From positions 1 through 64,000 of IMG/VR virus record IMGVR_UViG_3300023178_000017: 64,000 nt of DNA. One strand, written 5' to 3'. Source of the DNA: a virus. This document shows positions 39,277 to 53,534 of the stretch, in pieces. The translations under genes were made by a program, and so were the position numbers. The notes beneath the pieces are model-generated. The model had not been told where the DNA came from. It made no database searches and saw only the letters and a list, made by a program, of their open reading frames with translations. Every line of letters begins with the position of its first letter. Positions within the stretch are counted from its first letter, which is position 1.

Positions 39277-40881
39277 TCAAGAGACTTTATTCGCTCTCGC
39301 ATACGCTCTTTCATATACGTCTAACATATTTATATCACTGGTATCCATGTCTTTTATCCATGGGCCACCACGTGTCCAGTGAATTGCTAAAGCATGTGGT
39401 TTGTCTAAATGTGTTTCATATCCTTCAGTTATAATATGTCTAGGTGGTATTCTACTGATCTTGTCTGTCCATTCAAATTGATGTAAATACTTTCCTGACT
39501 CTGTATTCACTACTTCTGGTGTTAACTTCTTACAGTCTTCGTGTGCATTATTGAATACCATAAGACTAGACCACAATTTCTTAGGATAAGAAACATTCTT
39601 TTCGCCATCAAATTTAGTATCACTATGATTTTCGAAATCGTATTGTACACAAGCAATAGCATCTTTTGGGTCTAAGAAATAGAATAGTGGTAGTATAGAC
39701 TTACTAAACAATATGTCATCATCTAAGAAGATACTGAAACCTTCATAATTTTCTAGGTAAGGTATTAAGAATCTACTATATGTAAACTCTGTTGATTGAT
39801 TAGCATACTCTCTAGTGTATTCAGGTATCTTTGATACATCTAGTATCTTAATATTAGGTTGCCAGTCTTTTATAAATTCATACATGTCACCTTTACCAAA
39901 ACCATATTCAATTCCTTTTTGAAGCAACTTAACATTTGTTTCAGCAAGATCACCATGACGACTATCGTAACCCACATAGATTGATATAGGTTTGCCTTTT
40001 GCCATTTTCATAATGTTTTTATTGAAGTCTGTAACTGTACTTCTAAAACCGATATCAGCAAAAGCACTATGCATTTCTATAAAACCCTCTGTATATGTAA
40101 ATGAAAGATGTGTTGGTTTATCTTTCTTTTCAACAAAGGCTTTCCATAATTCAATTACTTGTTCAGCTGATAGAACTTCTGAATCAAATAAATCAAACTT
40201 ATCCCATACAAACATTTCCATATCTGGATCATCTATCATTTCAAATACTGCTGATCTTACAGAACCTGGATGTATTCTAAGAGTGTATCGTTCTTCTTCT
40301 GAAGAAGGTTTGTTCACTACACCTTGGATTGGATTCCAAAGGCCTTCATGTTTGATACTATCAATTAACCAGTGTGCTTTAGCACTGTGATAATAAGTTG
40401 AATTATTGATTTCTAATTGTCTTTCAGTTGGGCCTTCTGCACCAAAAACATATTTTGTATAGTCTGTTATCTTTTGATATTCATCATTTCGGTTTTTGAA
40501 ATCAAAGCCAGAATGACCAGGTATTGGTGTTTCAGGTTTTTCAGTATAACCGTACTGCAAATAATATTGATAGACATATGCTTGATGTTGTAATTGATTA
40601 AACGGTTGTAATTTTGTTGTATCAGAATAATCGTATAATCTTTCGTCTATCAATTTAGAAGCTTCTTTCCATTTAACATGCTTTAGTTTTGGTAATTTAT
40701 TCTTCATCAACCAATCTAAAGACTTATATGCTTCAGTTTCCTTGTAGTCTTTGGATAGTTCGATACTACCAATATGACAATGATCCATGAAAATGACTTC
40801 ATCGCCACTATCTGGCCCAAATGGTGATCTTCTATTTTGAAATGCTTCTTGTACGGCTTCTAAGGTTTCTAATTTTCTCAT
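39277..40881 (-). CDS. Two-domain protein: ParB/Srx-like N-region fused to a GT-A glycosyltransferase
   Basis: LIDSIKHEGLWNPI...IHPGSVR (ParB-like, inferred); IYVGYDSR, STEFTYSRFLIPYL, IFLDDDILF (DxD), YPKKLWSSLMVFN, HWTRGGPW. Confidence 0.75.
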   Translation of the reverse strand: MRKLETLEAVQEAFQNRRSPFGPDSGDEVIFMDHCHIGSIELSKDYKETEAYKSLDWLMKNKLPKLKHVKWKEASKLIDERLYDYSDTTKLQPFNQLQHQAYVYQYYLQYGYTEKPETPIPGHSGFDFKNRNDEYQKITDYTKYVFGAEGPTERQLEINNSTYYHSAKAHWLIDSIKHEGLWNPIQGVVNKPSSEEERYTLRIHPGSVRSAVFEMIDDPDMEMFVWDKFDLFDSEVLSAEQVIELWKAFVEKKDKPTHLSFTYTEGFIEMHSAFADIGFRSTVTDFNKNIMKMAKGKPISIYVGYDSRHGDLAETNVKLLQKGIEYGFGKGDMYEFIKDWQPNIKILDVSKIPEYTREYANQSTEFTYSRFLIPYLENYEGFSIFLDDDILFSKSILPLFYFLDPKDAIACVQYDFENHSDTKFDGEKNVSYPKKLWSSLMVFNNAHEDCKKLTPEVVNTESGKYLHQFEWTDKISRIPPRHIITEGYETHLDKPHALAIHWTRGGPWIKDMDTSDINMLDVYERAYARANKVS

Positions 40882-40910
40882 AATATAAAATATAGTTTAT
40901 TTAACTATAT

Positions 40911-42041
40911 TTATGACGTAATTGGAGATGCTGGCCACTGTTGTGACAATACACCGTCCCAACGATTCACTGGTGTTCTACCTTGTGTAGCGTAAGTACT
41001 TGGTGATCTATGTTGATAGGTAAACGGAGTTCTACCTTGTCTAGAATATGTACTTGGTGATCTATGTTGATAGGTAAACGGAGTTTGACCTTGTCTTGCA
41101 TATGTCACAGGTTGCCTATGTTGATATGTACTTGGCGATTGTGTTATTCTAGGATCTCTGTAAGTACTTGGTGATCTGTGTTGATATGTGCTAGGTACAC
41201 GATATGCTCTAGGATCTCTGTAAGTACTTGGTGATCTATGGTTATACGTGCTAGGTACTCTATAACTTCTTGGATCACGATATGTAGATGGTGATCTGTG
41301 TTGATATGTGCTAGGTACACGATATGATCTTGGGTCTTGATATGTAGACGGCGATCTATGTTGATATGTGCTAGGTACACGATATGATCTAGGATCACGG
41401 TATGTAAATGGCGATCTATGGTTATATGTAAACGGTGACCTATGTTGATACGTAAACGGTGATCTATGTTGATAAGTCGAAGGTTGTCTAGCGCCTCTAA
41501 TATTAGGTTCTTGTGCTGATACAGGGTGTCTGTAACCTGCTGGTTGTTGTGCTGATCTAATATTAGGTTCTTGTGCTGATACAGGGTGTCTATAACCTGC
41601 TGGTTGTCTAGCATTACCAATTACTGGTTGTTGTGCTGATACAGGTGCTCTATATGCTGCTGGTTGTCTAGCATTTCTAATATTAGGTTCTTGTGCTGAT
41701 CTGATATTAGGTTCTTGACCGCTTCTAATATTAGGTTCTTGTGCTGATCTAATATTAGGTTGTTGACCATTCGCAATATAAGGCGACTGGAAAGTAAACG
41801 GTTGCCTTGCGTTATTAGGTTGTTGAGCATTTGCAATATAAGGCGACTGGAAAGTAAACGGTTGCCTTGCGTTATTAGGTTGTCTAGCATTTGCAATATA
41901 AGGTGACTGATATGTAAATGGATTCTGGAATGTAAATGGATTCTGGAATGTAAATGGATTCTGGAAAGTAAAAGGTGTCTGCACAGGAACAGAAGCCTGT
42001 GTAATACCTTGAGCATTTGCTGGATAAAAACCTGTTGCCAT
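40911..42041 (-). CDS. Pro-delimited repeat protein A (antiparallel partner of 42053..43828)
   Basis: Residues 23-356 are 47 segments of 6, 8 or 10 aa, each starting with Pro. Confidence 0.9.
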   Translation of the reverse strand: MATGFYPANAQGITQASVPVQTPFTFQNPFTFQNPFTFQNPFTYQSPYIANARQPNNARQPFTFQSPYIANAQQPNNARQPFTFQSPYIANGQQPNIRSAQEPNIRSGQEPNIRSAQEPNIRNARQPAAYRAPVSAQQPVIGNARQPAGYRHPVSAQEPNIRSAQQPAGYRHPVSAQEPNIRGARQPSTYQHRSPFTYQHRSPFTYNHRSPFTYRDPRSYRVPSTYQHRSPSTYQDPRSYRVPSTYQHRSPSTYRDPRSYRVPSTYNHRSPSTYRDPRAYRVPSTYQHRSPSTYRDPRITQSPSTYQHRQPVTYARQGQTPFTYQHRSPSTYSRQGRTPFTYQHRSPSTYATQGRTPVNRWDGVLSQQWPASPITS

Positions 42042-43666
42042 TTTACTTTAGATTACTTAGGTGATGGTTTAAAGAAGAAGAAGTTGTGAGCTAATACACC
42101 ATTTGCAAAGAAATTGTGATTGTCGCCAACGTTCTTCAAGTTATACACCTGTTGTGAATCTTTCTCCTCTATTTTAATTATTTCTAGTCCTATTTCTGTA
42201 CCTAGTACAGCATCTGTCATGGTCATCAAATGATCACCGACTGCGATTTCTGAATTTACAAATTCATCTCCACCTTCTTCTTTGTGGAATTCTTTAAATT
42301 TCTCTAAGTTGATAACACCCCATTCACCATTCATTGTTCTAAATGGATGTTCTGAAGTTGTTTCAAGTATTCTACCGTCTGATAAATGTATCTCATGTAT
42401 TGATACTTCTCTTGGTTGCATCAACTCTTCGACTACACCGATCTCTAATTTATTTGTCTCTTCGTTCCAAGTCATTACGTCTTGACCAACTTCTACTGTT
42501 TCAATTGGTACATGACTGCCATCGCCCAACCATATCATTGTGCCGGCAACAAAACATCCTTTGCCACCTCCAGGAATGTTACCAGGTATTGGACCAAACG
42601 GTTGATAGAAGTACACTGCTGGGAAGATAAATGGATATCTTGCTGTTTGTTGTGTAGTACTTGGTTGCCTTGCGTTATTTGGTTGCCTTGCGTTGTTTGG
42701 TTGCCTTGCGTTATTAGGTTGTCTAGCAGCAACTGGTTGTCTTGCCTGATACGTAAACGGCGCACGGAATGTAAATGGAGTCCTTGCGTTATTAGGTTGT
42801 CTTGCCTGATACGTAAACGGCGCACGGAATGTAAATGGAGTCCTTGCGTTATTAGGTTGTCTTGCCTGATACGTAAACGGCGATCTATGGTTATACGTAA
42901 ACGGTGATCTGTGGTTATATGTAAACGGTGATCTGTGGTTATACGTATACGGTGATCTATGTTGATACGTAAATGGCACCCTATATGATCTTGGATCACG
43001 GTATGTAAATGGTGATCTGTACGCATACGTAAACGGTATCTGATATGATCTTGGATCACGGTATGTAAATGGTGATCTATGTTGATACGTAAATGGCACC
43101 CTATATGATCTTGGGTCTCTATATGTAAATGGTGACCTATGTTGATACGTAAACGGTGTTTGTGCGTTTCTGATATTTGGTTCTTGTGCAGACCTAATAT
43201 TTGGTTCTTGACCGCTTCTAATATTAGGCTCTTGAGCAGCAACTGGATGTTGATAAGATGCTGGTGTTTGTCTATTTCTTATAAACGGAGTCTGAGCACT
43301 TACAGGGTGATTATACCCAGCTGGTGTTTGTGCGTTTCTGATAAACGGATTCTGTGCATTAACAGGATGTTGATAAGAAGCAGGTTGTTGTGCGTTTCTG
43401 ATAAACGGATTCTGTGCATTTACTGGATGTCTATAGAATGCTGGTGTTTGTCTATTTCTTATAAACGGATTCTGTGCATTAACAGGATGTCTATATGATA
43501 CAGAGTTTTGTGCATTCGCAATATAAGGCGATTGAGCATTCGCAATATAAGGATACGGCTGTTGTGCATCTCTTATAAATGGATTCTGTCTATTAGCAAT
43601 ATAAGGATACGGCTGTTGTGCATCTCTTATAAATGGATTCTGTCTATTAGCAATATAAGGATATGG
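40974..43666 (-). repeat. Coding tandem repeats (18/24/54/60 bp periods) of proteins A and B
   Basis: Near-exact 60 bp duplications at about 41770-41900 and 42735-42880; 54 bp duplications at about 40990-41090 and 43540-43665. Confidence 0.9.
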
Positions 43667-43828
43667 TTGTTGTGTAGGTTGTTGACCTGATGCGTTATTC
43701 CACCCACTAGGAGTTTTAATGTAAATTTGATCTACATCTTTCCAAGTGTTTGAAGCAGTTTTAACCCATGCACCTTGGGTTGAATTCCAACCTGAGGGGG
43801 TTTTTACTTTCTGTGAGCCTGTCGCCAT
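42053..43828 (-). CDS. Pro-delimited repeat protein B with N-terminal docking-like motif and C-terminal Hint domain
   Basis: N-terminal WVKT..WKDVDQIYIKT..GW; residues 55-388 form 47 segments; Hint domain from Cys425. Confidence 0.9.
   Translation of the reverse strand: MATGSQKVKTPSGWNSTQGAWVKTASNTWKDVDQIYIKTPSGWNNASGQQPTQQPYPYIANRQNPFIRDAQQPYPYIANRQNPFIRDAQQPYPYIANAQSPYIANAQNSVSYRHPVNAQNPFIRNRQTPAFYRHPVNAQNPFIRNAQQPASYQHPVNAQNPFIRNAQTPAGYNHPVSAQTPFIRNRQTPASYQHPVAAQEPNIRSGQEPNIRSAQEPNIRNAQTPFTYQHRSPFTYRDPRSYRVPFTYQHRSPFTYRDPRSYQIPFTYAYRSPFTYRDPRSYRVPFTYQHRSPYTYNHRSPFTYNHRSPFTYNHRSPFTYQARQPNNARTPFTFRAPFTYQARQPNNARTPFTFRAPFTYQARQPVAARQPNNARQPNNARQPNNARQPSTTQQTARYPFIFPAVYFYQPFGPIPGNIPGGGKGCFVAGTMIWLGDGSHVPIETVEVGQDVMTWNEETNKLEIGVVEELMQPREVSIHEIHLSDGRILETTSEHPFRTMNGEWGVINLEKFKEFHKEEGGDEFVNSEIAVGDHLMTMTDAVLGTEIGLEIIKIEEKDSQQVYNLKNVGDNHNFFANGVLAHNFFFFKPSPK
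42083..42556 (-). other. Hint (bacterial intein-like) autoprocessing domain
   Basis: CFVAGT.I start, TTSEHPF block B, VYNL...HNFFANGVLAHN end; +1 residue is Phe; no endonuclease domain. Confidence 0.9.
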
Positions 43829-43861
43829 TTAATCCTTTCTCGCTTTTTATCTATTTATCAA

Positions 43862-46159
43862 TTATGAATAAAGAATCCATAGATCACCAACTGCTCCGTC
43901 ACCTGAAGTAGGTGCAGAAGTTGATTGATATATGTTTCTCGCAACACCACCACTATTTGAAGCGTATGATGTTGAAATTTGTGATGCTCTAAAGTTTGCG
44001 TCTGTTAATGTTAACGAACCTGTAGAAGCACCAGTTGCAGTTGTTGTAGCAACTACAAACTCATCAGCACTTTCGTCCCAACCCATAAATGCGTTGTCGC
44101 CAGTTGAACCTCTTTCTAACACAAGACCAAGGTCATTTGAGTTAGCACCTGTGTTACCAGACCCTAATTCAATCAATGCATCACTGATTGTTGTATTTGT
44201 AGAATCTACAGTTGATGTAGTACCATTAACTGTTAGGTTACCAGATAATGTTAAGTTACCAAATTGTACGTTACTTGTTGTAGCAACTGCCTGACCAATA
44301 CTTATTTCACCTGAACTAATTGAGACACCAGTTCCTGCACTAATATGACTTCTAACTTCTGAAGCGCTTGGGCCAGTATATGTGATTACACCAGTAGATG
44401 AATTGTATGCTAAACTTCCATCACCACCTGAATCAGTAACAGAGATTGAACCTCTTGCATCTGAATCAGCATATTGTGTAATTGTTGTTGCAAGTGTTAA
44501 GGTACCATTTACATCATCGTATGTTGATGTGATGCCTGTACCTGCTGTTACTAAAGCATTTACTCTGTCATCAACTCTTTCGTCTGTGAAGTATAAGTTT
44601 GATGAACCTTCTGTTAACGAATCTGTATCTGGTAATAATGCATTAACTCTAGCATCTGCTCTAGCGTTTGTAAAGTAAAGGTTTGAACCTTCTGAAATAT
44701 GAGCAGTTGTTGAAGGTATTGTAATAGCACCTGTACTTGAATCATATGCACCTGCACCAGAGTTTGTACTTAGAGATGCTCTTGCTCTAGCATCTGTATA
44801 GAATAAGTTTGTTGAACCTTCTGTAATGTCATCTGAATCACCACTTAGTTCACTTAATGCATCTGCTGTATCTACTTGTGCATCAACATAAGTTTTGACT
44901 GCTAACTGAGAAGGTACTAAAGTATCTGAAGCACTACCAAAATTAACATCTGTATCGATTGCATTTTGAACTCTAGCGTCTGCTCTTGCATTTGTAAAGT
45001 ATAAGTTTGTAGAGCCTTCTGTTATTTCATCTGTATTGTCTTTACTTGCGACTTGTGAATCTACATATGCTTTAACTGATTGTTGAGAAGGTATTCTTGT
45101 TTCACTATTAGACACCATATTATCTTCATCGATAAGAGCTGCTGTGATTCTAGCATCTGCTCTAGCGTCAGTGAAATATAAGTTTGAACCTTCTGCTAAA
45201 TCACCAGTGTCATGGTTAGCAATACTAGTAACTGTACCAGTTACGTTACCAGTTAAGTTTCCTTCGAATGTTCCTGCAACAAAAGTTTCTGAACCGACTG
45301 TCCATTTATCGTTGGTCTCATCCCATAAGAATGTTTTTGCAGTTGAACTACCTCTAGTTACACTCAAACCAGCATCTTCTGTTGGTGAACCTGAAGTAAA
45401 GTTACTGTTTAATGCGATTGTGTTGTCTGCAAGGTTAATTGTCTCTGAGTTTACAGTTGTTGTTGTACCTGAAACTGTTAGTGAACCTGAGATTGTAACA
45501 TCATCGTTAAGTGAAATAACACCATTTCCGTTACCACTCAATACTAAGTTAGTATCAGCTGATCTGGACACGATTTGATCAACTGCAATATTGTTACTAA
45601 ATGTGATGTTGTTTCCTGCACTGTTGGTAATATTGTTACCGTCTTCGATTTGAACTGGACCTTTAAGTGCAATAACACCTGATCCTGTTGCATCTAACTC
45701 TAAATCACCAGAACCACTTGTCTGTATAGACATGTTTTGGTTAGAGTCAGCACTAAAGACGATTGTACCTGAGTCATCTGAAATAACCTGTTGTCCGTTA
45801 ACATATAAAGAACCAGGTCCAACGTATACGTCTTTCCATGTTCTACTTGATGAACCTAAGTCGTATGTGTTATCTGCGCTTGGTATGATGTTACCTGCAA
45901 ATGTACCACCACCTAAGTATGATAATACATCTGAGTCGCCGTATTGGGCTGCACCTGCGATTGTTAGTGTGTTAGCAGAATCATCGTATGTTAATGTGAT
46001 GCCTGTACCTGCTGTTAAAAGTTGAGCGACTCTATCGTCTACTGACTCATCTAATGCTGATGCTGAAATTGAACCAACGTATGATCCAGAAGAGCTAATA
46101 ACCTCTGTTCCACCGATTGACAGGCCGTTTTTAATATTAAAATTCTTTTCCCCTGCCAT
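43862..46159 (-). CDS. Tail fibre-like virion protein
   Basis: Five D.(L/I).EGS.NL(Y/F).T..R repeats, GNLTVNGTT motifs, C-terminal SAPTSGDGAVGDLW. Confidence 0.8.
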   Translation of the reverse strand: MAGEKNFNIKNGLSIGGTEVISSSGSYVGSISASALDESVDDRVAQLLTAGTGITLTYDDSANTLTIAGAAQYGDSDVLSYLGGGTFAGNIIPSADNTYDLGSSSRTWKDVYVGPGSLYVNGQQVISDDSGTIVFSADSNQNMSIQTSGSGDLELDATGSGVIALKGPVQIEDGNNITNSAGNNITFSNNIAVDQIVSRSADTNLVLSGNGNGVISLNDDVTISGSLTVSGTTTTVNSETINLADNTIALNSNFTSGSPTEDAGLSVTRGSSTAKTFLWDETNDKWTVGSETFVAGTFEGNLTGNVTGTVTSIANHDTGDLAEGSNLYFTDARADARITAALIDEDNMVSNSETRIPSQQSVKAYVDSQVASKDNTDEITEGSTNLYFTNARADARVQNAIDTDVNFGSASDTLVPSQLAVKTYVDAQVDTADALSELSGDSDDITEGSTNLFYTDARARASLSTNSGAGAYDSSTGAITIPSTTAHISEGSNLYFTNARADARVNALLPDTDSLTEGSSNLYFTDERVDDRVNALVTAGTGITSTYDDVNGTLTLATTITQYADSDARGSISVTDSGGDGSLAYNSSTGVITYTGPSASEVRSHISAGTGVSISSGEISIGQAVATTSNVQFGNLTLSGNLTVNGTTSTVDSTNTTISDALIELGSGNTGANSNDLGLVLERGSTGDNAFMGWDESADEFVVATTTATGASTGSLTLTDANFRASQISTSYASNSGGVARNIYQSTSAPTSGDGAVGDLWILYS

Positions 46160-46507: not shown

Positions 46508-47248
46508 TCATACTTTAATTAATTGACGTGACCATTTGAATACAGTCGAGTTTGCAGAAGCAGGTGTAATCTTTAAAACTACATTACCACTTTCAACTGC
46601 AACTGATACTGAATACAACGAACTATTTGTAACTATCTCAGCGTATTGTGTAAAGTAAGCAGTTGAACCGTCATGAATTACAACAACTTCAGATGTGTGA
46701 TAGTTTGTACCCTCTGTTGCTTGTAAAATATACTTAGCACTTCGATAATTTGATAAAGAAAACGAATCTAAGTCTGTTTCCGATGTTGTAGTGGTTGTTG
46801 TACCTGTATTACTATCAACAACCAAACTATCGATTGTTAATGTGTCTGAAGCAGTGATAGTAGTGCATGTTAAATCACCAACTTCTAAAGCTGCTTTAGC
46901 GTAACCTGTGCCTGAAGTGTTAACTGTTGTAGTAGGTTCTACTTCTAAACCGTCAAATAATTTCCATGTAGAATCACTAGCATCTCTAAAAAGACCTGTG
47001 AACTCATTGCCGCTGTCTGATAAACCATCATCGTAGTTACCATATAACCCTATGTCAACTGTATCTGAACTCGTGTTTGAGTTCGCAAGTTCGATCATTG
47101 AGTCTATAACAGACGTGGTTGTACTGTTAACGGTAGTTTGTGTACCATTAACTGTTAAATTGCCTGTGATTGTCGCATCGCCATCGACCAACAGGTCTTG
47201 ACCTGTTTCTAGTCCTATGTCTGCATAAAATTTTGATTTTGTTGCCAT
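46508..47248 (-). CDS. Virion structural protein (fibre segment plus shared C-terminal beta domain)
   Basis: [15 protein letters not shown]; C-terminal LDSF...YRSAKY...YHTSEV..IHDGS...TQY. Confidence 0.7.
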   Translation of the reverse strand: MATKSKFYADIGLETGQDLLVDGDATITGNLTVNGTQTTVNSTTTSVIDSMIELANSNTSSDTVDIGLYGNYDDGLSDSGNEFTGLFRDASDSTWKLFDGLEVEPTTTVNTSGTGYAKAALEVGDLTCTTITASDTLTIDSLVVDSNTGTTTTTTSETDLDSFSLSNYRSAKYILQATEGTNYHTSEVVVIHDGSTAYFTQYAEIVTNSSLYSVSVAVESGNVVLKITPASANSTVFKWSRQLIKV

Positions 47249-47297
47249 AATAATCTCAAAAATATATTCTCAGTACTATTTATGACTTTTTGGAAGT

Positions 47298-47324
47298 AAA
47301 AGAAAGGGGATCATGTGATCCCCT
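47298..47324 (-). terminator. Intrinsic terminator
   Basis: AGGGGATCA-tg-TGATCCCCT with a U-rich tail on the minus strand. Confidence 0.7.
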
Positions 47325-47344
47325 CTCAAGAAAGTTGCTTAGTT

Positions 47345-47755
47345 CTAAGCGCCTACTAAAGTCCTGTGGAATTTAATAGTTGTACTGTTTGCTGAGGCAG
47401 GTGTAATTCTGAGTCTCAAGTCGGAACCATTAATGTCAGCATCGAATGATGCAACACTAGTGTTTTTCAATGTACCGTATTGAGTCATGGTTACTGCGCT
47501 TCCGTCATGTACTAATACTATCTCAGTTGAATGATAGTTAGAACCTTCTGACATTGCAATAACATATCTAGCAGCTCTAAAGTCAGCATGGGCAAAAGTG
47601 TCCAAGTCGACTTGAGATGTAGATGTTGTTGTTAATGCTGTAGACGTTCTATGTTTAGTATCCAACTCTTTAGAAGTAGTGATGACATCATTAGATGAAT
47701 CGTAAGACAATACTCTAATTAACTCAGCGACTTTAAATGCATTTGTTTTAGCCAT
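47345..47755 (-). CDS. Virion structural protein (shared beta domain)
   Basis: LDTF...FRAARY...YHSTEIVLVHDGS...TQYG...ITPASANST. Confidence 0.7.
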   Translation of the reverse strand: MAKTNAFKVAELIRVLSYDSSNDVITTSKELDTKHRTSTALTTTSTSQVDLDTFAHADFRAARYVIAMSEGSNYHSTEIVLVHDGSAVTMTQYGTLKNTSVASFDADINGSDLRLRITPASANSTTIKFHRTLVGA

Positions 47756-47765
47756 TGTCTACTCC

Positions 47766-48593
47766 TTATGATAACCTAATTTGGAAGGTTTTGAATGTTG
47801 TATTAGTATTTGCAGGAGTCACAAGCAATCTCATGTTTCCTGAATTTACATCTGAACTTAACGTGAATAATGAAGACGCTGAATATACATCGCCATATTG
47901 AACGAAGTAAGAATTCGAGCCATCATTAATCAATAATACTTCTGCTGAATGTGTGCCAGCTGATGCATGTGATGCCATGATCACATACTTAACTGCCTTG
48001 TTGGCAATTGCGTTTGCTGATAACACCTGATCTGCTGTAGTAGCAGTAGCTGATAATGTAGTGAAGTAACCTTGAACAAGGTTAGCTGCACTAGTAATAG
48101 CGACTACTTCAACAACATCACCATTTAAAGCATTTTCCGTTAATGTGATAGTTGATGAGCTGGTAGCAGTATAGTCTGCACCACCACCTACTAACTTAAC
48201 ACCGTTAATGTACACTTGTTCATAACCTGAGGTATATGAAAGTGAATTACCATTATCATCGTTACCTGTAATTGAAGTACCAGTTGATGATATAGTGTAA
48301 GTGAATGTTTGTACACCCGAAGATGGTTGGTCTGACCAACTCAAAGTTCCTGAACCATCAGTTTTTAAAATCTGATTTGAGGAACCATCACTTGTAGGAA
48401 AAGAGAAAGCATCATTAACAGTTAAAGAAGCTGGATTCGATCCAACTTCTACAACAGCAGCTGAGCCGTCATTCTTCTCGGTATAAAATCTACCATGATA
48501 AGTATTGACAGCTAATTCACCTAGTGATAGATCACCTATACCAGGCAAAGCGCTTTGTGTAGAACTCCTTTTAAATTGTATTAATGTTGCCAT
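47766..48593 (-). CDS. Virion fibre protein with Mtd-N-like N-terminus and shared beta domain
   Basis: IQFKRS...LSLGELAVN; DGSSNQILKTDGSGTLSW; C-terminal domain paralogous to both neighbours. Confidence 0.7.
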   Translation of the reverse strand: MATLIQFKRSSTQSALPGIGDLSLGELAVNTYHGRFYTEKNDGSAAVVEVGSNPASLTVNDAFSFPTSDGSSNQILKTDGSGTLSWSDQPSSGVQTFTYTISSTGTSITGNDDNGNSLSYTSGYEQVYINGVKLVGGGADYTATSSSTITLTENALNGDVVEVVAITSAANLVQGYFTTLSATATTADQVLSANAIANKAVKYVIMASHASAGTHSAEVLLINDGSNSYFVQYGDVYSASSLFTLSSDVNSGNMRLLVTPANTNTTFKTFQIRLS

Positions 48594-50938: not shown

Positions 50939-51868
50939 CTAATTATTTAATTGGGAATATGGGACTTTTGTATGTATTTTTTCTACTGTAGTTGGATCAG
51001 TTTTTACGTATGCTTCTTCTAATTGTTTTACAGTACCGTCTGCATCTTTAACATAAACTTGTTTAACTTCTGCTACAGGACCTATAGGTCTTCTGCTAGA
51101 ATATGTTATCTGATATGTAAATGGTGATCTATGTTGATATGTAGTTTGTACAACAATGTTACCACTTCTTGTATTCTGAGCATTTGCAATATATGGTGAA
51201 GGTTGAGAAGCAGAAACCCTATATGTATCTGGCGATCTATGTTGATACGTAAATGGTATTCTATGTTGATAGAACGATGGTGATCTATGTTGATACGTAA
51301 ATGGTGTTCTACCTGTTGTAGGATATGTTATAGGTTGCCTATGTTGATATGTTGTTGGTGTTCGCCCTGTTGCCTGATATGTTGAAGGCTGTCTTGCATC
51401 TCTAATAAATGGATTCTGTCTATCAACAGGATGTCTGTAAGTTGTAGGTGAAGGTTTATTTCTTATAAACGGATTCTGTTTATTTACAGGATGTCTGTAA
51501 TTAGCTGATATACGATAGCTACCAATTATCGGATTCTGTCTGTTAACAGGATGTTGATAAGCTGCTGGTTGACGTTGATTTGCAACATAAGGTGATGGTC
51601 TATTTCTAATAAACGGATTCTGTTGTTGTGCAATGTATGGTGATTGAAATGGACTTCTTGCGATAGCAGCTGTCTGTGCGTTTGCTATGTAAGGAATAGG
51701 CACTCTAGTATTAGCAACTGTCTGAGCGTTTGCTGATGCACGGGCATTAGCAATGTACGGCACAGGCGTAGTACCGTTAGTAGAATTTTGTCTATTAGCA
51801 ATATAAGGATACGGCTGTTGTCCTGGCGTTGCGTTTGAATTGCTATATGTTACTTGTACGGTTGGCAT
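50939..51868 (-). CDS. Repeat protein C (antiparallel partner of 51870..53534) with C-terminal docking-like motif
   Basis: Residues 19-260 form 33 segments; C-terminal VKQVYVK..GTVKQL..AYVKT resembles the N-terminus of protein B. Confidence 0.88.
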   Translation of the reverse strand: MPTVQVTYSNSNATPGQQPYPYIANRQNSTNGTTPVPYIANARASANAQTVANTRVPIPYIANAQTAAIARSPFQSPYIAQQQNPFIRNRPSPYVANQRQPAAYQHPVNRQNPIIGSYRISANYRHPVNKQNPFIRNKPSPTTYRHPVDRQNPFIRDARQPSTYQATGRTPTTYQHRQPITYPTTGRTPFTYQHRSPSFYQHRIPFTYQHRSPDTYRVSASQPSPYIANAQNTRSGNIVVQTTYQHRSPFTYQITYSSRRPIGPVAEVKQVYVKDADGTVKQLEEAYVKTDPTTVEKIHTKVPYSQLNN

Positions 51869-51869
51869 T

Positions 51870-53534
51870 TTATACTATTATTGGCCCCCCACTACCTGCA
51901 TTATATGCTGCTCTTAAACTTATGGGGCTTGATGACCAAGAACCGTTGAAGTATGAAGCTATATGAAAATATGTATAATAAGTGTCTGTGCCTTTTGTTG
52001 CTTTTATTCCAAAATAAACATCATTTGATGTTAATTGTACTGGATTACCTGTGCTGTCGTATACACCCCACTTAAAAAATCTAGCAGTGCGAGTACCATT
52101 AAATCCACCCCTTGAAGTTGAACCAGACCAGAAATTATAATATTGGCCTCTGGTTTTTCCACAAACATGTGGATAAAATCCATAACTGTTTCCACCTCCT
52201 CCGTAACAATTTGTTTGAGCTTGAGTACCTGATACCGATTCACCACTTGCATAATATGCTACATCAAAATTCCAAGTATCGTCAATTATACCATTAGCAT
52301 TCAAATCGGTAATAGGCATATAAAATCTATAATAAAAACTCCAACCACTATTACTAAAAGAGTTATAATGACCATACGATATTCTAAAAGCCCCTAAAGG
52401 ATTTGTCTGAACAGTATTATTGTTAGCTGCAAAATCAAATTGCATATAACAACCACATTCGGTATGATTAAAACCAGGATTACCAGTTGCTAATTGAAGA
52501 GTATTCCAACTTGGTACACTAAACATAGAAGCAGTTCCTGAAGGTGGGTCAGAATTTATATAATTCGTACTACCACCAAAAGGATATACATCCCAAACAG
52601 GATTACTTATACCTGAGCCCCAAGGTTGAGGGTTCGGTTGATTAGCTAAAGTTGCACTTGTTGCTGTTGAACTTCCAGACAGTGCTGATTCGCCTACAAT
52701 ACCTTCATATGATGTTGGTACCTGAGCAGTCGATGGTGACTGATATATGTAAGGCGTTTGGCCTTGTGCTGAATAAGTCGAAGGCGATTGATAAATGTAA
52801 GGCGATGGTCTTTGCGCCTGATACGTAAACGGATTTTGATAAATCGATGGCACCCTATATGTTTGAGGACTTCTTTGTTGTGCTTGATAAGTTGAAGGCA
52901 CTCTATAAGGTACAGGTTGTTGATTTGACTCCTGTGCGTTTATATTTGCTGGTGACTGGTGTTGATACGTAGTAGGTTGTTGTGCCTGATATGTTACAGG
53001 ATTTCTGTAACTTCTTGGGTCACGATATGTACTAGGTGATCTATAAGCATAACTTACAGGATTTCTGTAACTTCTTGGGTCACGATATGTACTAGGTGAT
53101 TGATGTTGATACGCAACTATAACCTGTGCATTTCTTGGGTCTCTATAAGTTGAAGGACTTTGATGTTGATACGTAAACGGTGTTTGTGCGTTTGCAGGAT
53201 ACGGATACGGATTCTGTCTATTAGCAATATAAGGTGATTGTGCATCGGCCTGATAAGTATACGTTTGTTGTGCGTTTCTTATAAAAGGATTTTGTCTCGA
53301 TCTTATGTTAGGTTGCTGTGCGTTTCTTATAAAAGGATTTTGCCTATTAACAGGATTTCGATAAATTATTGGTTGTTGATTCTGATAAGTCGAAGGAGAC
53401 TGAAACGTATAAGGAACAATCGATGGTTGTTGTCTTATATTTGGTTCTTGAATGTTAGCAGGTTGCCTTGCTATGTAAGGTTGCTGAAAACTACCGCCAT
53501 TTAAATTGTGTTTAATGTAAATTTTATCTGCCAT
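51870..53534 (-). CDS. Repeat protein D with C-terminal globular (putative receptor-binding) domain
   Basis: Residues 19-260 form 33 segments; about 270 aa aromatic/Gly/Asn-rich non-repetitive C-terminus. Confidence 0.88.
   Translation of the reverse strand: MADKIYIKHNLNGGSFQQPYIARQPANIQEPNIRQQPSIVPYTFQSPSTYQNQQPIIYRNPVNRQNPFIRNAQQPNIRSRQNPFIRNAQQTYTYQADAQSPYIANRQNPYPYPANAQTPFTYQHQSPSTYRDPRNAQVIVAYQHQSPSTYRDPRSYRNPVSYAYRSPSTYRDPRSYRNPVTYQAQQPTTYQHQSPANINAQESNQQPVPYRVPSTYQAQQRSPQTYRVPSIYQNPFTYQAQRPSPYIYQSPSTYSAQGQTPYIYQSPSTAQVPTSYEGIVGESALSGSSTATSATLANQPNPQPWGSGISNPVWDVYPFGGSTNYINSDPPSGTASMFSVPSWNTLQLATGNPGFNHTECGCYMQFDFAANNNTVQTNPLGAFRISYGHYNSFSNSGWSFYYRFYMPITDLNANGIIDDTWNFDVAYYASGESVSGTQAQTNCYGGGGNSYGFYPHVCGKTRGQYYNFWSGSTSRGGFNGTRTARFFKWGVYDSTGNPVQLTSNDVYFGIKATKGTDTYYTYFHIASYFNGSWSSSPISLRAAYNAGSGGPIIV

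What the first reader, a model, noticed from the sequence alone, without database searches (positions are those of the whole stretch)
40911..43828. Two adjacent genes encode segment-for-segment antiparallel complementary repeat proteins: a programmed protein zipper
SEEN: cutting protein A (40911..42041, residues 23-356) at each Pro gives 47 segments with lengths 6,6,6,6,8,6,6,8,6,6,8,8,8,8,8,6,6,8,6,6,8,6,6,8,8,8,8,6,6,8,6,6,8,6,6,8,6,6,8,6,6,8,10,8,10,8,10. Protein B (42053..43828, residues 55-388) read from its C-terminal segment backwards gives exactly the same series. Both total 334 aa. Two conventions were needed in B: PYPYIANxQx counted as one 10-mer, and one Ser-for-Pro boundary. Facing segments follow a fixed code: PFTFxx faces PNNARx; PYIANxxQ faces PFTYQARQ; P(N/F)IRxxxx faces PxTYxHRS; PAxYxH faces PRSYxx; PVxAQx faces PxTYxD; PYPYIANxQx faces PxTYxxQGxT. 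The code swaps sides in the middle (segments 24/25). All lengths are even, consistent with beta-strand alternation. INFERENCE: A and B form a long antiparallel heterodimeric beta-ribbon fibre whose register is set by a barcode, analogous to base pairing. I do not recognise this from described phage fibres, which are mostly parallel homotrimers.
Basis: partly seen in the sequence, partly recalled or inferred. Interest (0 to 1): 0.97.

Follow-up and report, generated by a model that had tools for sequence, protein, structure and literature searches.

The report
Mirror-coded two-protein phage fibre zipper
Two neighbouring genes of an uncultured marine T4-like phage encode repeat proteins whose short proline-bounded segments match one another in reverse order and in a fixed complementary code. 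The match is kept in dozens of related phages with different segment orders, so the two chains almost certainly lie side by side head-to-tail, a building principle not described for phage fibres.

Summary
Protein A (376 aa) and protein B (591 aa) lie on the minus strand in the order B then A. Each has a 334-residue region of Pro-started 6/8/10-residue segments. Read antiparallel and without gaps, 47 of A's 52 prolines face a proline of B; segment-shuffled B gives 22 +/- 2, maximum 32.

45 distinct homologous pairs from IMG/VR carry 37 different barcodes, and each barcode is shared by both partners. The cognate partner is best or tied in 40 of 45. Three exceptions differ by one 44- or 88-residue block.

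Facing segments follow a code: aromatic "TY" types face "NIR/YIAN/VxAQ/NNAR" types in 1565 of 1675 segment pairs. A facing-residue matrix learned from other loci scores the window pair +488 bits antiparallel and -65 parallel. It also picks out a second, degenerate pair in the same window.

There is no DNA inverted repeat. B ends in a non-splicing BIL/Hint domain, present in about a quarter of the loci.

An antiparallel A-B assembly is well supported. The two-stranded beta-ribbon geometry, the stoichiometry and the fibre role are inferred: structure predictions gave nothing usable. No cultured-phage homologue, named family or paper was found. First readers of this scan noted the same stretch in overlapping windows.

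The parts
42053..43828 (-). Gene B (591 aa), the 'outgoing' chain: conserved N-terminal domain, 334-aa repeat zipper, Gly-rich linker, BIL/Hint domain.
   Evidence: ORF. AAAGGA lies 5 nt before the ATG, with a GATAAATA late-promoter-like box upstream. B-type N-terminus found in 66 of 77 related loci.
43667..43828 (-). B residues 1-54: conserved N-terminal domain with two KTPSGWN motifs. In the antiparallel model it sits next to A's C-terminal tail.
   Evidence: 70-89% identical in the ten related loci printed. The zipper starts at B residue 55 in nearly all pairs.
42665..43666 (-). B repeat region, residues 55-388: 47 Pro-delimited segments, the reverse of A's series.
42560..42664 (-). B residues 389-423: aromatic/Pro/Gly linker ending in GGGKG just before Cys424.
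   Evidence: Sequence. A poly-Gly run before the Cys occurs in all Hint-bearing homologues.
42083..42559 (-). B residues 424-582: BIL/Hint autoprocessing domain (Cys424, TSEH block B, His581-Asn582), followed by a 9-residue tail that starts with Phe (42056-42082).
   Evidence: Pfam Intein_splicing 5e-8, below its gathering score. PDB 2lwy BIL domain 7e-6. AF2 pLDDT 89.2. Foldseek top hits are BIL2 6tmm (E 2.8e-11, TM 0.74/0.83) and mini-inteins. Cys, His and His-Asn are invariant in 25 sequences.
40911..42041 (-). Gene A (376 aa), the 'returning' chain. It starts 11 nt after B's stop codon.
   Evidence: ORF; junction. Between the homologous A genes of L008 and L047, 41 of 56 nucleotide differences fall at third codon positions.
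40974..41975 (-). A repeat region, residues 23-356: 47 Pro-delimited segments of 6/8/10 residues.
40914..40973 (-). A residues 357-376: conserved C-terminal tail (PVNRWDG..QQWP..P..S).
   Evidence: R360, W361, D362, W369 and P370 are invariant in 27 A-type sequences. The tail keeps a fixed register with B's N-terminal anchor in 32 of 32 pairs.
51870..53534 (-). Gene C (554 aa), paralogue of B: N-terminal degenerate zipper repeats plus an orphan C-terminal domain of about 270 aa.
   Evidence: The C-terminal domain has no relative among 1.84 billion representatives.
50939..51868 (-). Gene D (309 aa), paralogue of A and partner of C.
   Evidence: Antiparallel score with the held-out matrix is +49 bits at one offset; the next offset scores -75; shuffled controls give mean -65, sd 13. 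Alignment.
43862..46159 (-). Upstream fibre-like structural protein (765 aa), a conserved neighbour.
   Evidence: phrog_697 structural protein 1e-52. Present next to the pair in 66 of 77 loci.
39277..40881 (-). Downstream 534-aa protein with a weak glycosyltransferase family 8 match, a conserved neighbour.
   Evidence: Pfam GT8 6.8e-5, below its cut-off. Present in 76 of 77 loci, directly after the pair in the ten loci whose gene order was printed.

Best explanation
A and B are two late, co-transcribed structural proteins of the tail-fibre gene module of an uncultured marine T4-like myovirus. They assemble with each other along their whole 334-residue repeat regions in antiparallel orientation.

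Every proline-started segment of 6, 8 or 10 residues in one chain lies against a segment of the same length and of the complementary class in the other. Aromatic PxTY-type segments lie against PNIR/PYIAN/PVxAQ/PNNAR-type segments. The irregular order of lengths and classes makes one register, and the hetero-pair, far better than any other.

The most likely geometry (inferred) is an extended two-stranded antiparallel beta-ribbon. Prolines would face prolines at non-hydrogen-bonded positions, which is why all segment lengths are even. Several ribbons may be bundled.

B's conserved N-terminal domain and A's conserved C-terminal tail meet at one end, probably the virion-proximal end. B's C-terminus and A's N-terminus meet at the other end. 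There B carries an optional BIL/Hint domain, which most likely cuts itself off at Gly423|Cys424 after assembly (inferred).
For: Shown:
- The mirror is exact in the window and about 10 sd above shuffles.
- 45 distinct homologous pairs have A lengths of 246-562 aa. In most, 85-96% of A's prolines are in one ungapped antiparallel register with the cognate B. Median non-cognate values are 36-58%. The cognate is best or tied in 40 of 45.
- There are 37 different barcodes, each shared by both partners.
- 1675 of 1702 A segments face a B piece with identical boundaries.
- The class code carries 1.61, 1.21 and 0.61 bits within equal-length segments, against at most 0.1 when shuffled. 1565 of 1675 facing pairs are aromatic-type against N-type.
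- A facing-residue matrix learned without the window scores +452 to +488 bits at one antiparallel offset. The next offset scores -57, the parallel orientation -65, and shuffled B at most -4.
- Within class pairs, the strongest covarying positions fall on i+j = L+2 and L in four of five classes. This is the pattern of directly opposite and diagonal cross-strand neighbours with Pro opposite Pro.
- The genes share no DNA inverted repeat, so the mirror is not a nucleic-acid palindrome.
- The mirror survives a swap of gene order in L088, with 24 of 26 prolines matched.
- The conserved ends coincide and the variable ends coincide.
- Synteny inside a fibre module is conserved in 76 of 77 loci, next to a VrlC-like baseplate-region protein.
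- The Hint fold and its catalytic residues are present.

Inferred: the beta-ribbon geometry, the fibre role and Hint self-cleavage.
Against: No structural evidence. AlphaFold2 on A alone is unfolded (pLDDT 39.7). No solved relative exists.

Both chains are strongly basic (12% Arg, 2.7% Asp+Glu, no Lys). Simple pairing must overcome this repulsion, which hints at a possible polyanionic third partner.

Partial A-A and B-B antiparallel matches exist (+166 and +196 bits locally).

Five of 45 pairs are not in a single register. Three of them fit after one indel of 44 or 88 residues. This may be repeat mis-assembly or real mismatch.

The residue covariation is confounded by coordinated block duplication.

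No homology to any known fibre family. No virion proteomics.
Confidence: 0.72

Rival explanations
1. A and B do co-assemble antiparallel and segment against segment, but not as a free two-stranded ribbon. Candidates are a multi-chain tube such as (AB)3, with six strands as in the T4 gp37 needle, or a hetero beta-helix in which each Pro-bounded segment is one rung.
For: Phage fibres are usually trimeric (established knowledge). An isolated two-stranded ribbon of about 110 nm has no hydrophobic core. Aromatic residues fall on alternating faces depending on which chain carries the TY-type segment (sequence). Runs of 6-6-8 and 10-8 periodicity could reflect turns of a solenoid.
Against: The order of segment lengths along one chain varies freely between homologues, with 37 barcodes. 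That is expected for a linear zipper. It is awkward for a solenoid, whose stacked turns must match within one chain. Prolines on both edges would break lateral hydrogen bonds in a closed tube.
Confidence: 0.18
2. The two chains do not touch each other directly. Each lines up along a third, polar or polyanionic partner, such as another fibre protein, a polysaccharide or nucleic acid. The mirror would then reflect a shared template.
For: Both repeats are very basic and Arg/Tyr/Gln/Asn-rich. A conserved glycosyltransferase-like gene follows the pair.
Against: A shared template would select the same order in both chains read in the template's direction, and similar sequences. It would not select complementary classes. 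The observed rule is that unlike classes face each other, and identical classes almost never do. Covariation is between specific positions of the two chains.
Confidence: 0.07
3. The mirror is a by-product of repeat composition, of a mutational mechanism or of assembly, with no functional pairing.
For: Both proteins are built from a few repeat types with 6-6-8 periodicity. This alone gives about 50-60% proline coincidence at many offsets. Repeats are prone to mis-assembly.
Against: The observed match is about 10 sd above order-shuffled controls. It recurs in 37 different barcodes from independent metagenomes. There is no DNA-level inverted repeat. Both genes are under purifying selection in the stated frame. 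The same sequence is held by runs of several studies.
Confidence: 0.02

Closest known systems
Distal needle of the phage T4 long tail fibre protein gp37 (recalled from the literature, not tested here)
   Same: A thin fibre shaft made of long extended strands that run out to a tip and back, so neighbouring strands are antiparallel. It lies in the fibre module of a T4-like phage.
   Different: gp37 is one gene and a homotrimer. The chain reverses within itself and is held by HxH iron sites. Here the outgoing and returning strands are two separate gene products with a length-and-class barcode, and there is no sequence similarity.
Parallel homotrimeric repeat shafts: triple beta-helix (T4 gp5/gp12, endosialidase stalk) and triple beta-spiral (adenovirus fibre, reovirus sigma1)
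   Same: Short sequence repeats with Pro/Gly at fixed spacing that build long viral fibres.
   Different: Those are parallel, made of one gene product, and have a constant repeat length. Here there are two gene products, antiparallel, with mixed 6/8/10 lengths in an order that differs between relatives but is always mirrored.
Bacterial intein-like (BIL) / Hint domains, for example C. thermocellum BIL (2lwy) and Tetrahymena BUBL BIL2 (6tmm)
   Same: B residues 424-582 have the Hint fold, Cys1, the TxxH block and the terminal His-Asn.
   Different: The domain sits at the end of a phage repeat protein after a poly-Gly tail. The +1 residue is Phe, Tyr or Gly in every homologue examined, so no splicing is expected. 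It is dispensable: it was detected in 20 of 77 loci.
Self-cleaving C-terminal intramolecular chaperone domains of phage tailspikes and fibres (Peptidase_S74 type; K1F endosialidase, T5 pb1; recalled)
   Same: A C-terminal domain of a fibre protein that would help assembly and then remove itself. This is a working analogy for the Hint domain.
   Different: Unrelated fold and chemistry: a Ser-Lys dyad against a Cys thioester with Asn cyclisation. Not tested here.
Heterospecific coiled-coil zippers (Fos/Jun and designed pairs) and tandem beta-zippers (FnBPA-fibronectin)
   Same: Partner and register are specified by a repeated pattern of complementary residues along two extended chains.
   Different: Coiled coils are helical with a constant heptad. 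Tandem beta-zippers add a disordered peptide to folded modules. Here both partners are repeat chains, the units differ in length, and the pairing extends over 236-540 residues.

Membership tests
Hint superfamily / bacterial intein-like (BIL) domain (B residues 424-582) | Hint fold | tested here: met
   AF2 model pLDDT 89.2, pTM 0.85. Foldseek against PDB: BIL2 6tmm E 2.8e-11 with TM 0.74/0.83, DnaB mini-intein 1mi8, BIL 2lwy, Hedgehog 1at0.
Hint superfamily / bacterial intein-like (BIL) domain (B residues 424-582) | N-terminal nucleophile (Cys1) and block B TxxH | tested here: met
   Cys424 and the His of TSEH are invariant, and the Thr nearly invariant, in 25 aligned sequences.
Hint superfamily / bacterial intein-like (BIL) domain (B residues 424-582) | Score above Pfam's curated gathering threshold for a Hint-type model | tested here: not met
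   The best is Intein_splicing at 33.3 bits against a cut-off of 35.8. PT-HINT, Hint_2, Vint and Hint are all below their cut-offs. Membership rests on fold and catalytic residues.
Splicing intein | Cys/Ser/Thr at +1 after the terminal His-Asn, and a C-extein to be ligated | tested here: not met
   The +1 residue is Phe in the window and Phe, Tyr or Gly in the 10 homologues examined. Only 9-25 residues follow. It is therefore not filed as an intein.
Phage tail fibre / baseplate-associated fibre protein | Gene lies in the fibre and baseplate gene module | tested here: met
   Flanked by phrog_697 and tail-fibre-like proteins and a VrlC-like 2255-aa protein. The gene order is conserved in 76 of 77 loci.
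Phage tail fibre / baseplate-associated fibre protein | Sequence or profile homology to a described fibre family | tested here: not met
   No PHROG family for A, and only the Hint part of B matches one of unknown function. No Pfam domain in the repeats. No PDB relative. No homologue in 50,697 phage records.
Phage tail fibre / baseplate-associated fibre protein | Presence in the virion; elongated oligomer | not testable with these tools
   Needs virion proteomics or EM of an isolate or of recombinant protein.
Collagen-like / polyproline-II bundles | Gly every third residue | tested here: not met
   Gly is 1.6% of the repeats. The periods are 6, 8 and 10, not multiples of 3.
Two-stranded antiparallel beta-ribbon (structural class, not a family) | Two-residue periodicity, with Pro only at positions whose NH points away from the partner | tested here: inconclusive
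   All segment lengths are even. Covariation peaks at i+j = L+2 and L, which means Pro opposite Pro. No structural model was obtained.

The most novel reading that the evidence does not exclude
The pair is a natural, programmable hetero-specific beta-zipper: about six complementary segment 'letters' of three lengths that specify partner, orientation and register over 80-180 nm.

In addition, the BIL/Hint domain may use its thioester to join B's poly-Gly C-terminus covalently to the only amine that A offers. A has no lysine, and its N-terminus is predicted to lie next to B's C-terminus. The join would close the two chains into one hairpin.
Probability: 0.12. Interest if true: 0.97.

Novelty: categorically new. 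Interest (0 to 1): 0.9.

Why it matters
If the two chains pair as the co-variation indicates, this is a natural protein-protein recognition code. It is written in short beta segments of different lengths and fixes partner, orientation and register over hundreds of residues. Until now that has been known mainly for nucleic acids and, in a simpler form, for coiled coils.

It would explain how a phage can build, and quickly re-size, a very long thin fibre from two genes. Homologues range from 236 to 540 paired residues.

It would give protein designers a ready-made set of orthogonal beta 'letters', with dozens of natural barcodes as test cases.

It would add a new biological use for a non-splicing Hint domain.

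The family is abundant in marine and salt-marsh viromes. It has no cultured representative, so it also marks a blind spot in what is known of marine myovirus host recognition.

Tried and rejected
- Complex prediction on A 1-142 with B 269-423 (ESMFold2, no alignments): score 0.00, verdict 'no answer'. It is neither support nor evidence against.
- AlphaFold2 on A alone with a 27-sequence alignment: pLDDT 39.7, no secondary structure, uninformative.
- DNA-level explanation: only one 14-nt inverted repeat in 2.9 kb. The antisense frames of B encode unrelated peptides. The idea that A is encoded by B's opposite strand is rejected.
- Cultured-phage homologues: tblastn of A and B against 50,697 phage records found only compositional hits. 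The Ruminococcus phiRM10 hit lies on the strand opposite an annotated gene. Megablast of the 9-kb region found nothing.
- PHROGs, Pfam, PDB sequences and the ESM Atlas gave no informative family for the repeats. The weak 'Cementoin' hits are below cut-off and compositional.
- Fused single-chain hairpin forms: none among the 5 longer relatives or the 125 homologues screened for self-complementarity, where the maximum was 0.68.
- Relatives of C's C-terminal domain, sought for hints on oligomeric state: none in 1.84 billion representatives.
- An independent measure of repeat length by runs of canonical segments was too noisy to use.
- Read laying: Logan contigs break inside the repeats. They show presence in DNA runs of several studies and fragments in RNA libraries, but not transcription, ends or repeat copy number.
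- Literature searches found no description of such pairs. The 'two-protein chain-like fibres' of podophage A1002 are strings of globular dimers and are unrelated.
- Genome scan: two MAG contigs, binned as Verrucomicrobiales and Sphingobacteriales, carry the module. They look like binned phage contigs, so no host is inferred.
Full report
**Anatomy**

The region holds two minus-strand genes. B runs 43828..42053 (591 aa) and A runs 42041..40911 (376 aa), 11 nt apart. B has an AAAGGA ribosome-binding site and a late-promoter-like GATAAATA upstream.

B consists of five parts:
- a 54-residue N-terminal domain with two KTPSGWN motifs;
- a 334-residue repeat region (55-388);
- an aromatic/Pro/Gly linker ending in GGGKG;
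- a Hint-type domain (424-582);
- a 9-residue tail.

A consists of 22 N-terminal residues, a 334-residue repeat (23-356) and a 20-residue tail (PVNRWDG..QQWP).

The repeats use only 15 amino acids (P R Q Y A N S T F I H V G D E). They lack Lys, Leu, Met, Cys and Trp, and are strongly basic.

**Check of the observation**

- In the ungapped antiparallel alignment, 47 of A's 52 prolines stand opposite a proline of B. The next best offset gives 33.
- Within the repeats the count is 45 of 47. B with shuffled segment order gives 22.1 +/- 2.2 (maximum 32 in 5000). Three-segment chunk shuffles reach at most 34. The parallel orientation gives 28.

**Does it hold in relatives?**

A scan of IMG/VR returned 220 related stretches. 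From 77 loci I extracted 45 distinct adjacent gene pairs, with A lengths of 246-562 aa.

- In most pairs, 85-96% of A's prolines are in a single ungapped antiparallel register with the cognate B. Forward and self comparisons stay near 50-60%.
- Against all 45 B proteins the cognate is best or tied for 40 A proteins. Median non-cognate values are 0.36-0.58.
- The pairs carry 37 different barcodes, each shared by both partners.
- Three of the outliers (L010, L018, L065) fall into register after a single indel of 44, 44 or 88 residues. That is one or two copies of a 44-residue tandem block, so it may be repeat mis-assembly or real variation.
- Two further pairs on MAG contigs are also mirrored. 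One of them (L088) has the gene order swapped, A before B, with 24 of 26 prolines matched.
- The zipper always begins at B residue 55, opposite the last segment of A. It runs to within a few residues of A's N-terminus.

**The code**

- Of 1702 A segments of 6, 8 or 10 residues, 1675 face a B piece with identical boundaries.
- Among segments of equal length, the class of one side predicts the class of the other by 1.61, 1.21 and 0.61 bits for 6-, 8- and 10-mers. Shuffling gives at most 0.1 bits.
- The rules are: PNIRxxQx against PxTYxHRS; PYPYIANxQx against PxTYxxxGxT; PVxAQx against PxTYRx; PNNARx against PFTFxx or PxTYxx; PYIANxxQ against PxTYxxRx; and PAxYxH against PRSYxx.
- Overall, 1565 of 1675 pairs are aromatic-type against N-type, in either direction.
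- A log-odds matrix of facing residues, learned only from other loci, scores the window pair +452 bits on the full-length proteins and +488 bits on the repeat regions alone, at one antiparallel offset in each case. The next offset scores -57, the parallel orientation -65, and segment-shuffled B at most -4.
- A-A and B-B score at most +59 over their whole length. They do reach +166 and +196 locally over about 160 residues, so partial self-pairing is possible.

**Register**

Within class pairs, the strongest excess mutual information lies between positions with i+j = L+2 and i+j = L. Examples are N8-Y2 and N6-Y2 in 8-mers, N2-Y6 and N6-Y2 in 6-mers, and N10-Y2 and N8-Y2 in 10-mers. This holds in four of five class pairs.

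That is the signature expected for directly opposite and diagonal neighbours on one face of an antiparallel pair of strands, with Pro opposite Pro. In a two-stranded ribbon only every second residue hydrogen-bonds to the partner (established structural knowledge). Proline is tolerated only at the other positions, which would explain why every segment length is even.

Caveat: coordinated block duplications inflate these statistics, so I treat the register as inferred.

**What it is not**

- There is no DNA inverted repeat between the genes, and antisense frames encode unrelated peptides.
- The reading frame is real. Between the A genes of L008 and L047, 41 of 56 nucleotide differences are at third codon positions, giving 10 amino-acid changes in 310.
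- The same sequence is held by salt-marsh and marine metagenome runs of several studies. Fragments occur in metatranscriptome libraries, but this does not prove transcription.

**Context**

The record is a 105-kb fragment of a virus. Its 2255-aa VrlC-like protein is 37% identical to that of Methylophilales phage Melnitz and 33-34% identical to those of cyanomyoviruses. Earlier notes list T4-type genes elsewhere in the record.

The pair lies between a 765-aa fibre-like protein and a 534-aa protein with a weak GT8 match. This order (orf275, orf136, orf246, orf86, fibre, B, A, GT8-like, orf189, oxygenase-like) recurs in 76 of 77 loci.

A second, more degenerate pair lies 7 kb away: C at 53534..51870 and D at 51868..50939. 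It obeys the same code, scoring +49 bits against -65 +/- 13 for shuffles. C carries an orphan C-terminal domain of about 270 residues.

C therefore presents a globular domain at the end where the partner's N-terminus lies. B presents a Hint domain, an unrelated domain of about 150 residues, or only '...GGGNFCEP', depending on the locus. This fits a shaft that displays a variable distal end, with the conserved B N-terminus and A C-terminus as the attachment end.

**The Hint domain**

- Pfam hits are just below threshold, and the best PDB sequence hit is a BIL domain.
- An AF2 model from 25 sequences has pLDDT 89.2. It superposes best on the BIL2 domain of Tetrahymena BUBL1, then on mini-inteins, a bacterial BIL domain and Hedgehog.
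- Cys424, the TxxH histidine and the terminal His-Asn are invariant.
- The +1 residue is Phe, Tyr or Gly in every homologue examined.
- Splicing is therefore not expected. Cleavage at the Gly|Cys junction, or transfer of the thioester, is the expected chemistry (knowledge of BIL and Hedgehog domains).
- Because A has no lysine and its N-terminus should lie next to this junction, ligation of B to A is conceivable but untested.

**Structure prediction**

The complex job gave no verdict. A alone is predicted to be unfolded. Geometry and stoichiometry therefore remain open.

**Comparison and novelty**

No PHROG, Pfam, PDB or cultured-phage relative exists for the repeats. All of the roughly 420 database relatives are unnamed metagenomic proteins. 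Literature searches found no description.

The nearest concepts differ in essentials:
- the out-and-back strands of the T4 gp37 needle (one gene, homotrimer);
- parallel triple beta-helices and beta-spirals;
- heterospecific coiled coils.

I therefore rate the feature as categorically new at the level of principle. The caveat is that the physical pairing is inferred from co-variation and has not been observed.

Noticed in passing
window 50939-53534 (-): Second zipper pair (C 554 aa, D 309 aa) with degenerate boundaries that obeys the same facing code. Relatives of C (P0121-P0124) add a C-terminal Hint domain after a globular domain.
   Followed up: partly
window 51873-52682 (-): The C-terminal domain of C (about 270 aa) has no relative at all among 1.84 billion representative proteins. 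It may be a hypervariable receptor-binding tip.
   Followed up: partly
window 39277-40881 (-): A 534-aa protein with a sub-threshold glycosyltransferase family 8 match follows the pair in 76 of 77 loci. It could modify the Thr/Ser/Tyr-rich fibre or the host surface.
   Followed up: no
window 46508-48593 (-): Three adjacent proteins (246, 136 and 275 aa) share a C-terminal domain of about 80 residues (..Y.I....G..YH..E....DG...) and are conserved upstream of the pair. No Pfam match for the two scanned (246 and 275 aa).
   Followed up: no
L016:5716-5976 (+): In loci where B ends in a non-Hint domain of about 150 aa, an 86-aa ORF lies between B and A. It may be a chaperone or tip protein.
   Followed up: no
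L088:4998-6793 (+): Gene order is swapped (A before B) on a 121-kb contig binned into a Sphingobacteriales MAG. The barcode is still mirrored, 24 of 26.
   Followed up: yes
L001, L005, L020 and similar loci (B C-termini): Hint-less B proteins end in ...GGG(G)NFCEP. They keep the poly-Gly run and a Cys where Hint-bearing relatives have GGG..G|C. This looks like the scar of a lost Hint domain.
   Followed up: no
window 40974-41975 and 42665-43666 (-): The repeats contain no Lys, Leu, Met, Cys or Trp. They have 12% Arg against 2.7% acidic residues, so both chains are strongly basic. The reason is unexplained.
   Followed up: partly
L010, L018, L065: Cognate barcodes differ by exactly one or two 44-residue (132-nt) tandem blocks. 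This is either collapse or expansion in short-read assembly, or natural intermediates of fibre length change.
   Followed up: partly
window 40800-43900: Near-identical sequence is present in salt-marsh (2018) and marine (2024) metagenome runs. Fragments occur in metatranscriptome libraries of the salt-marsh series.
   Followed up: partly
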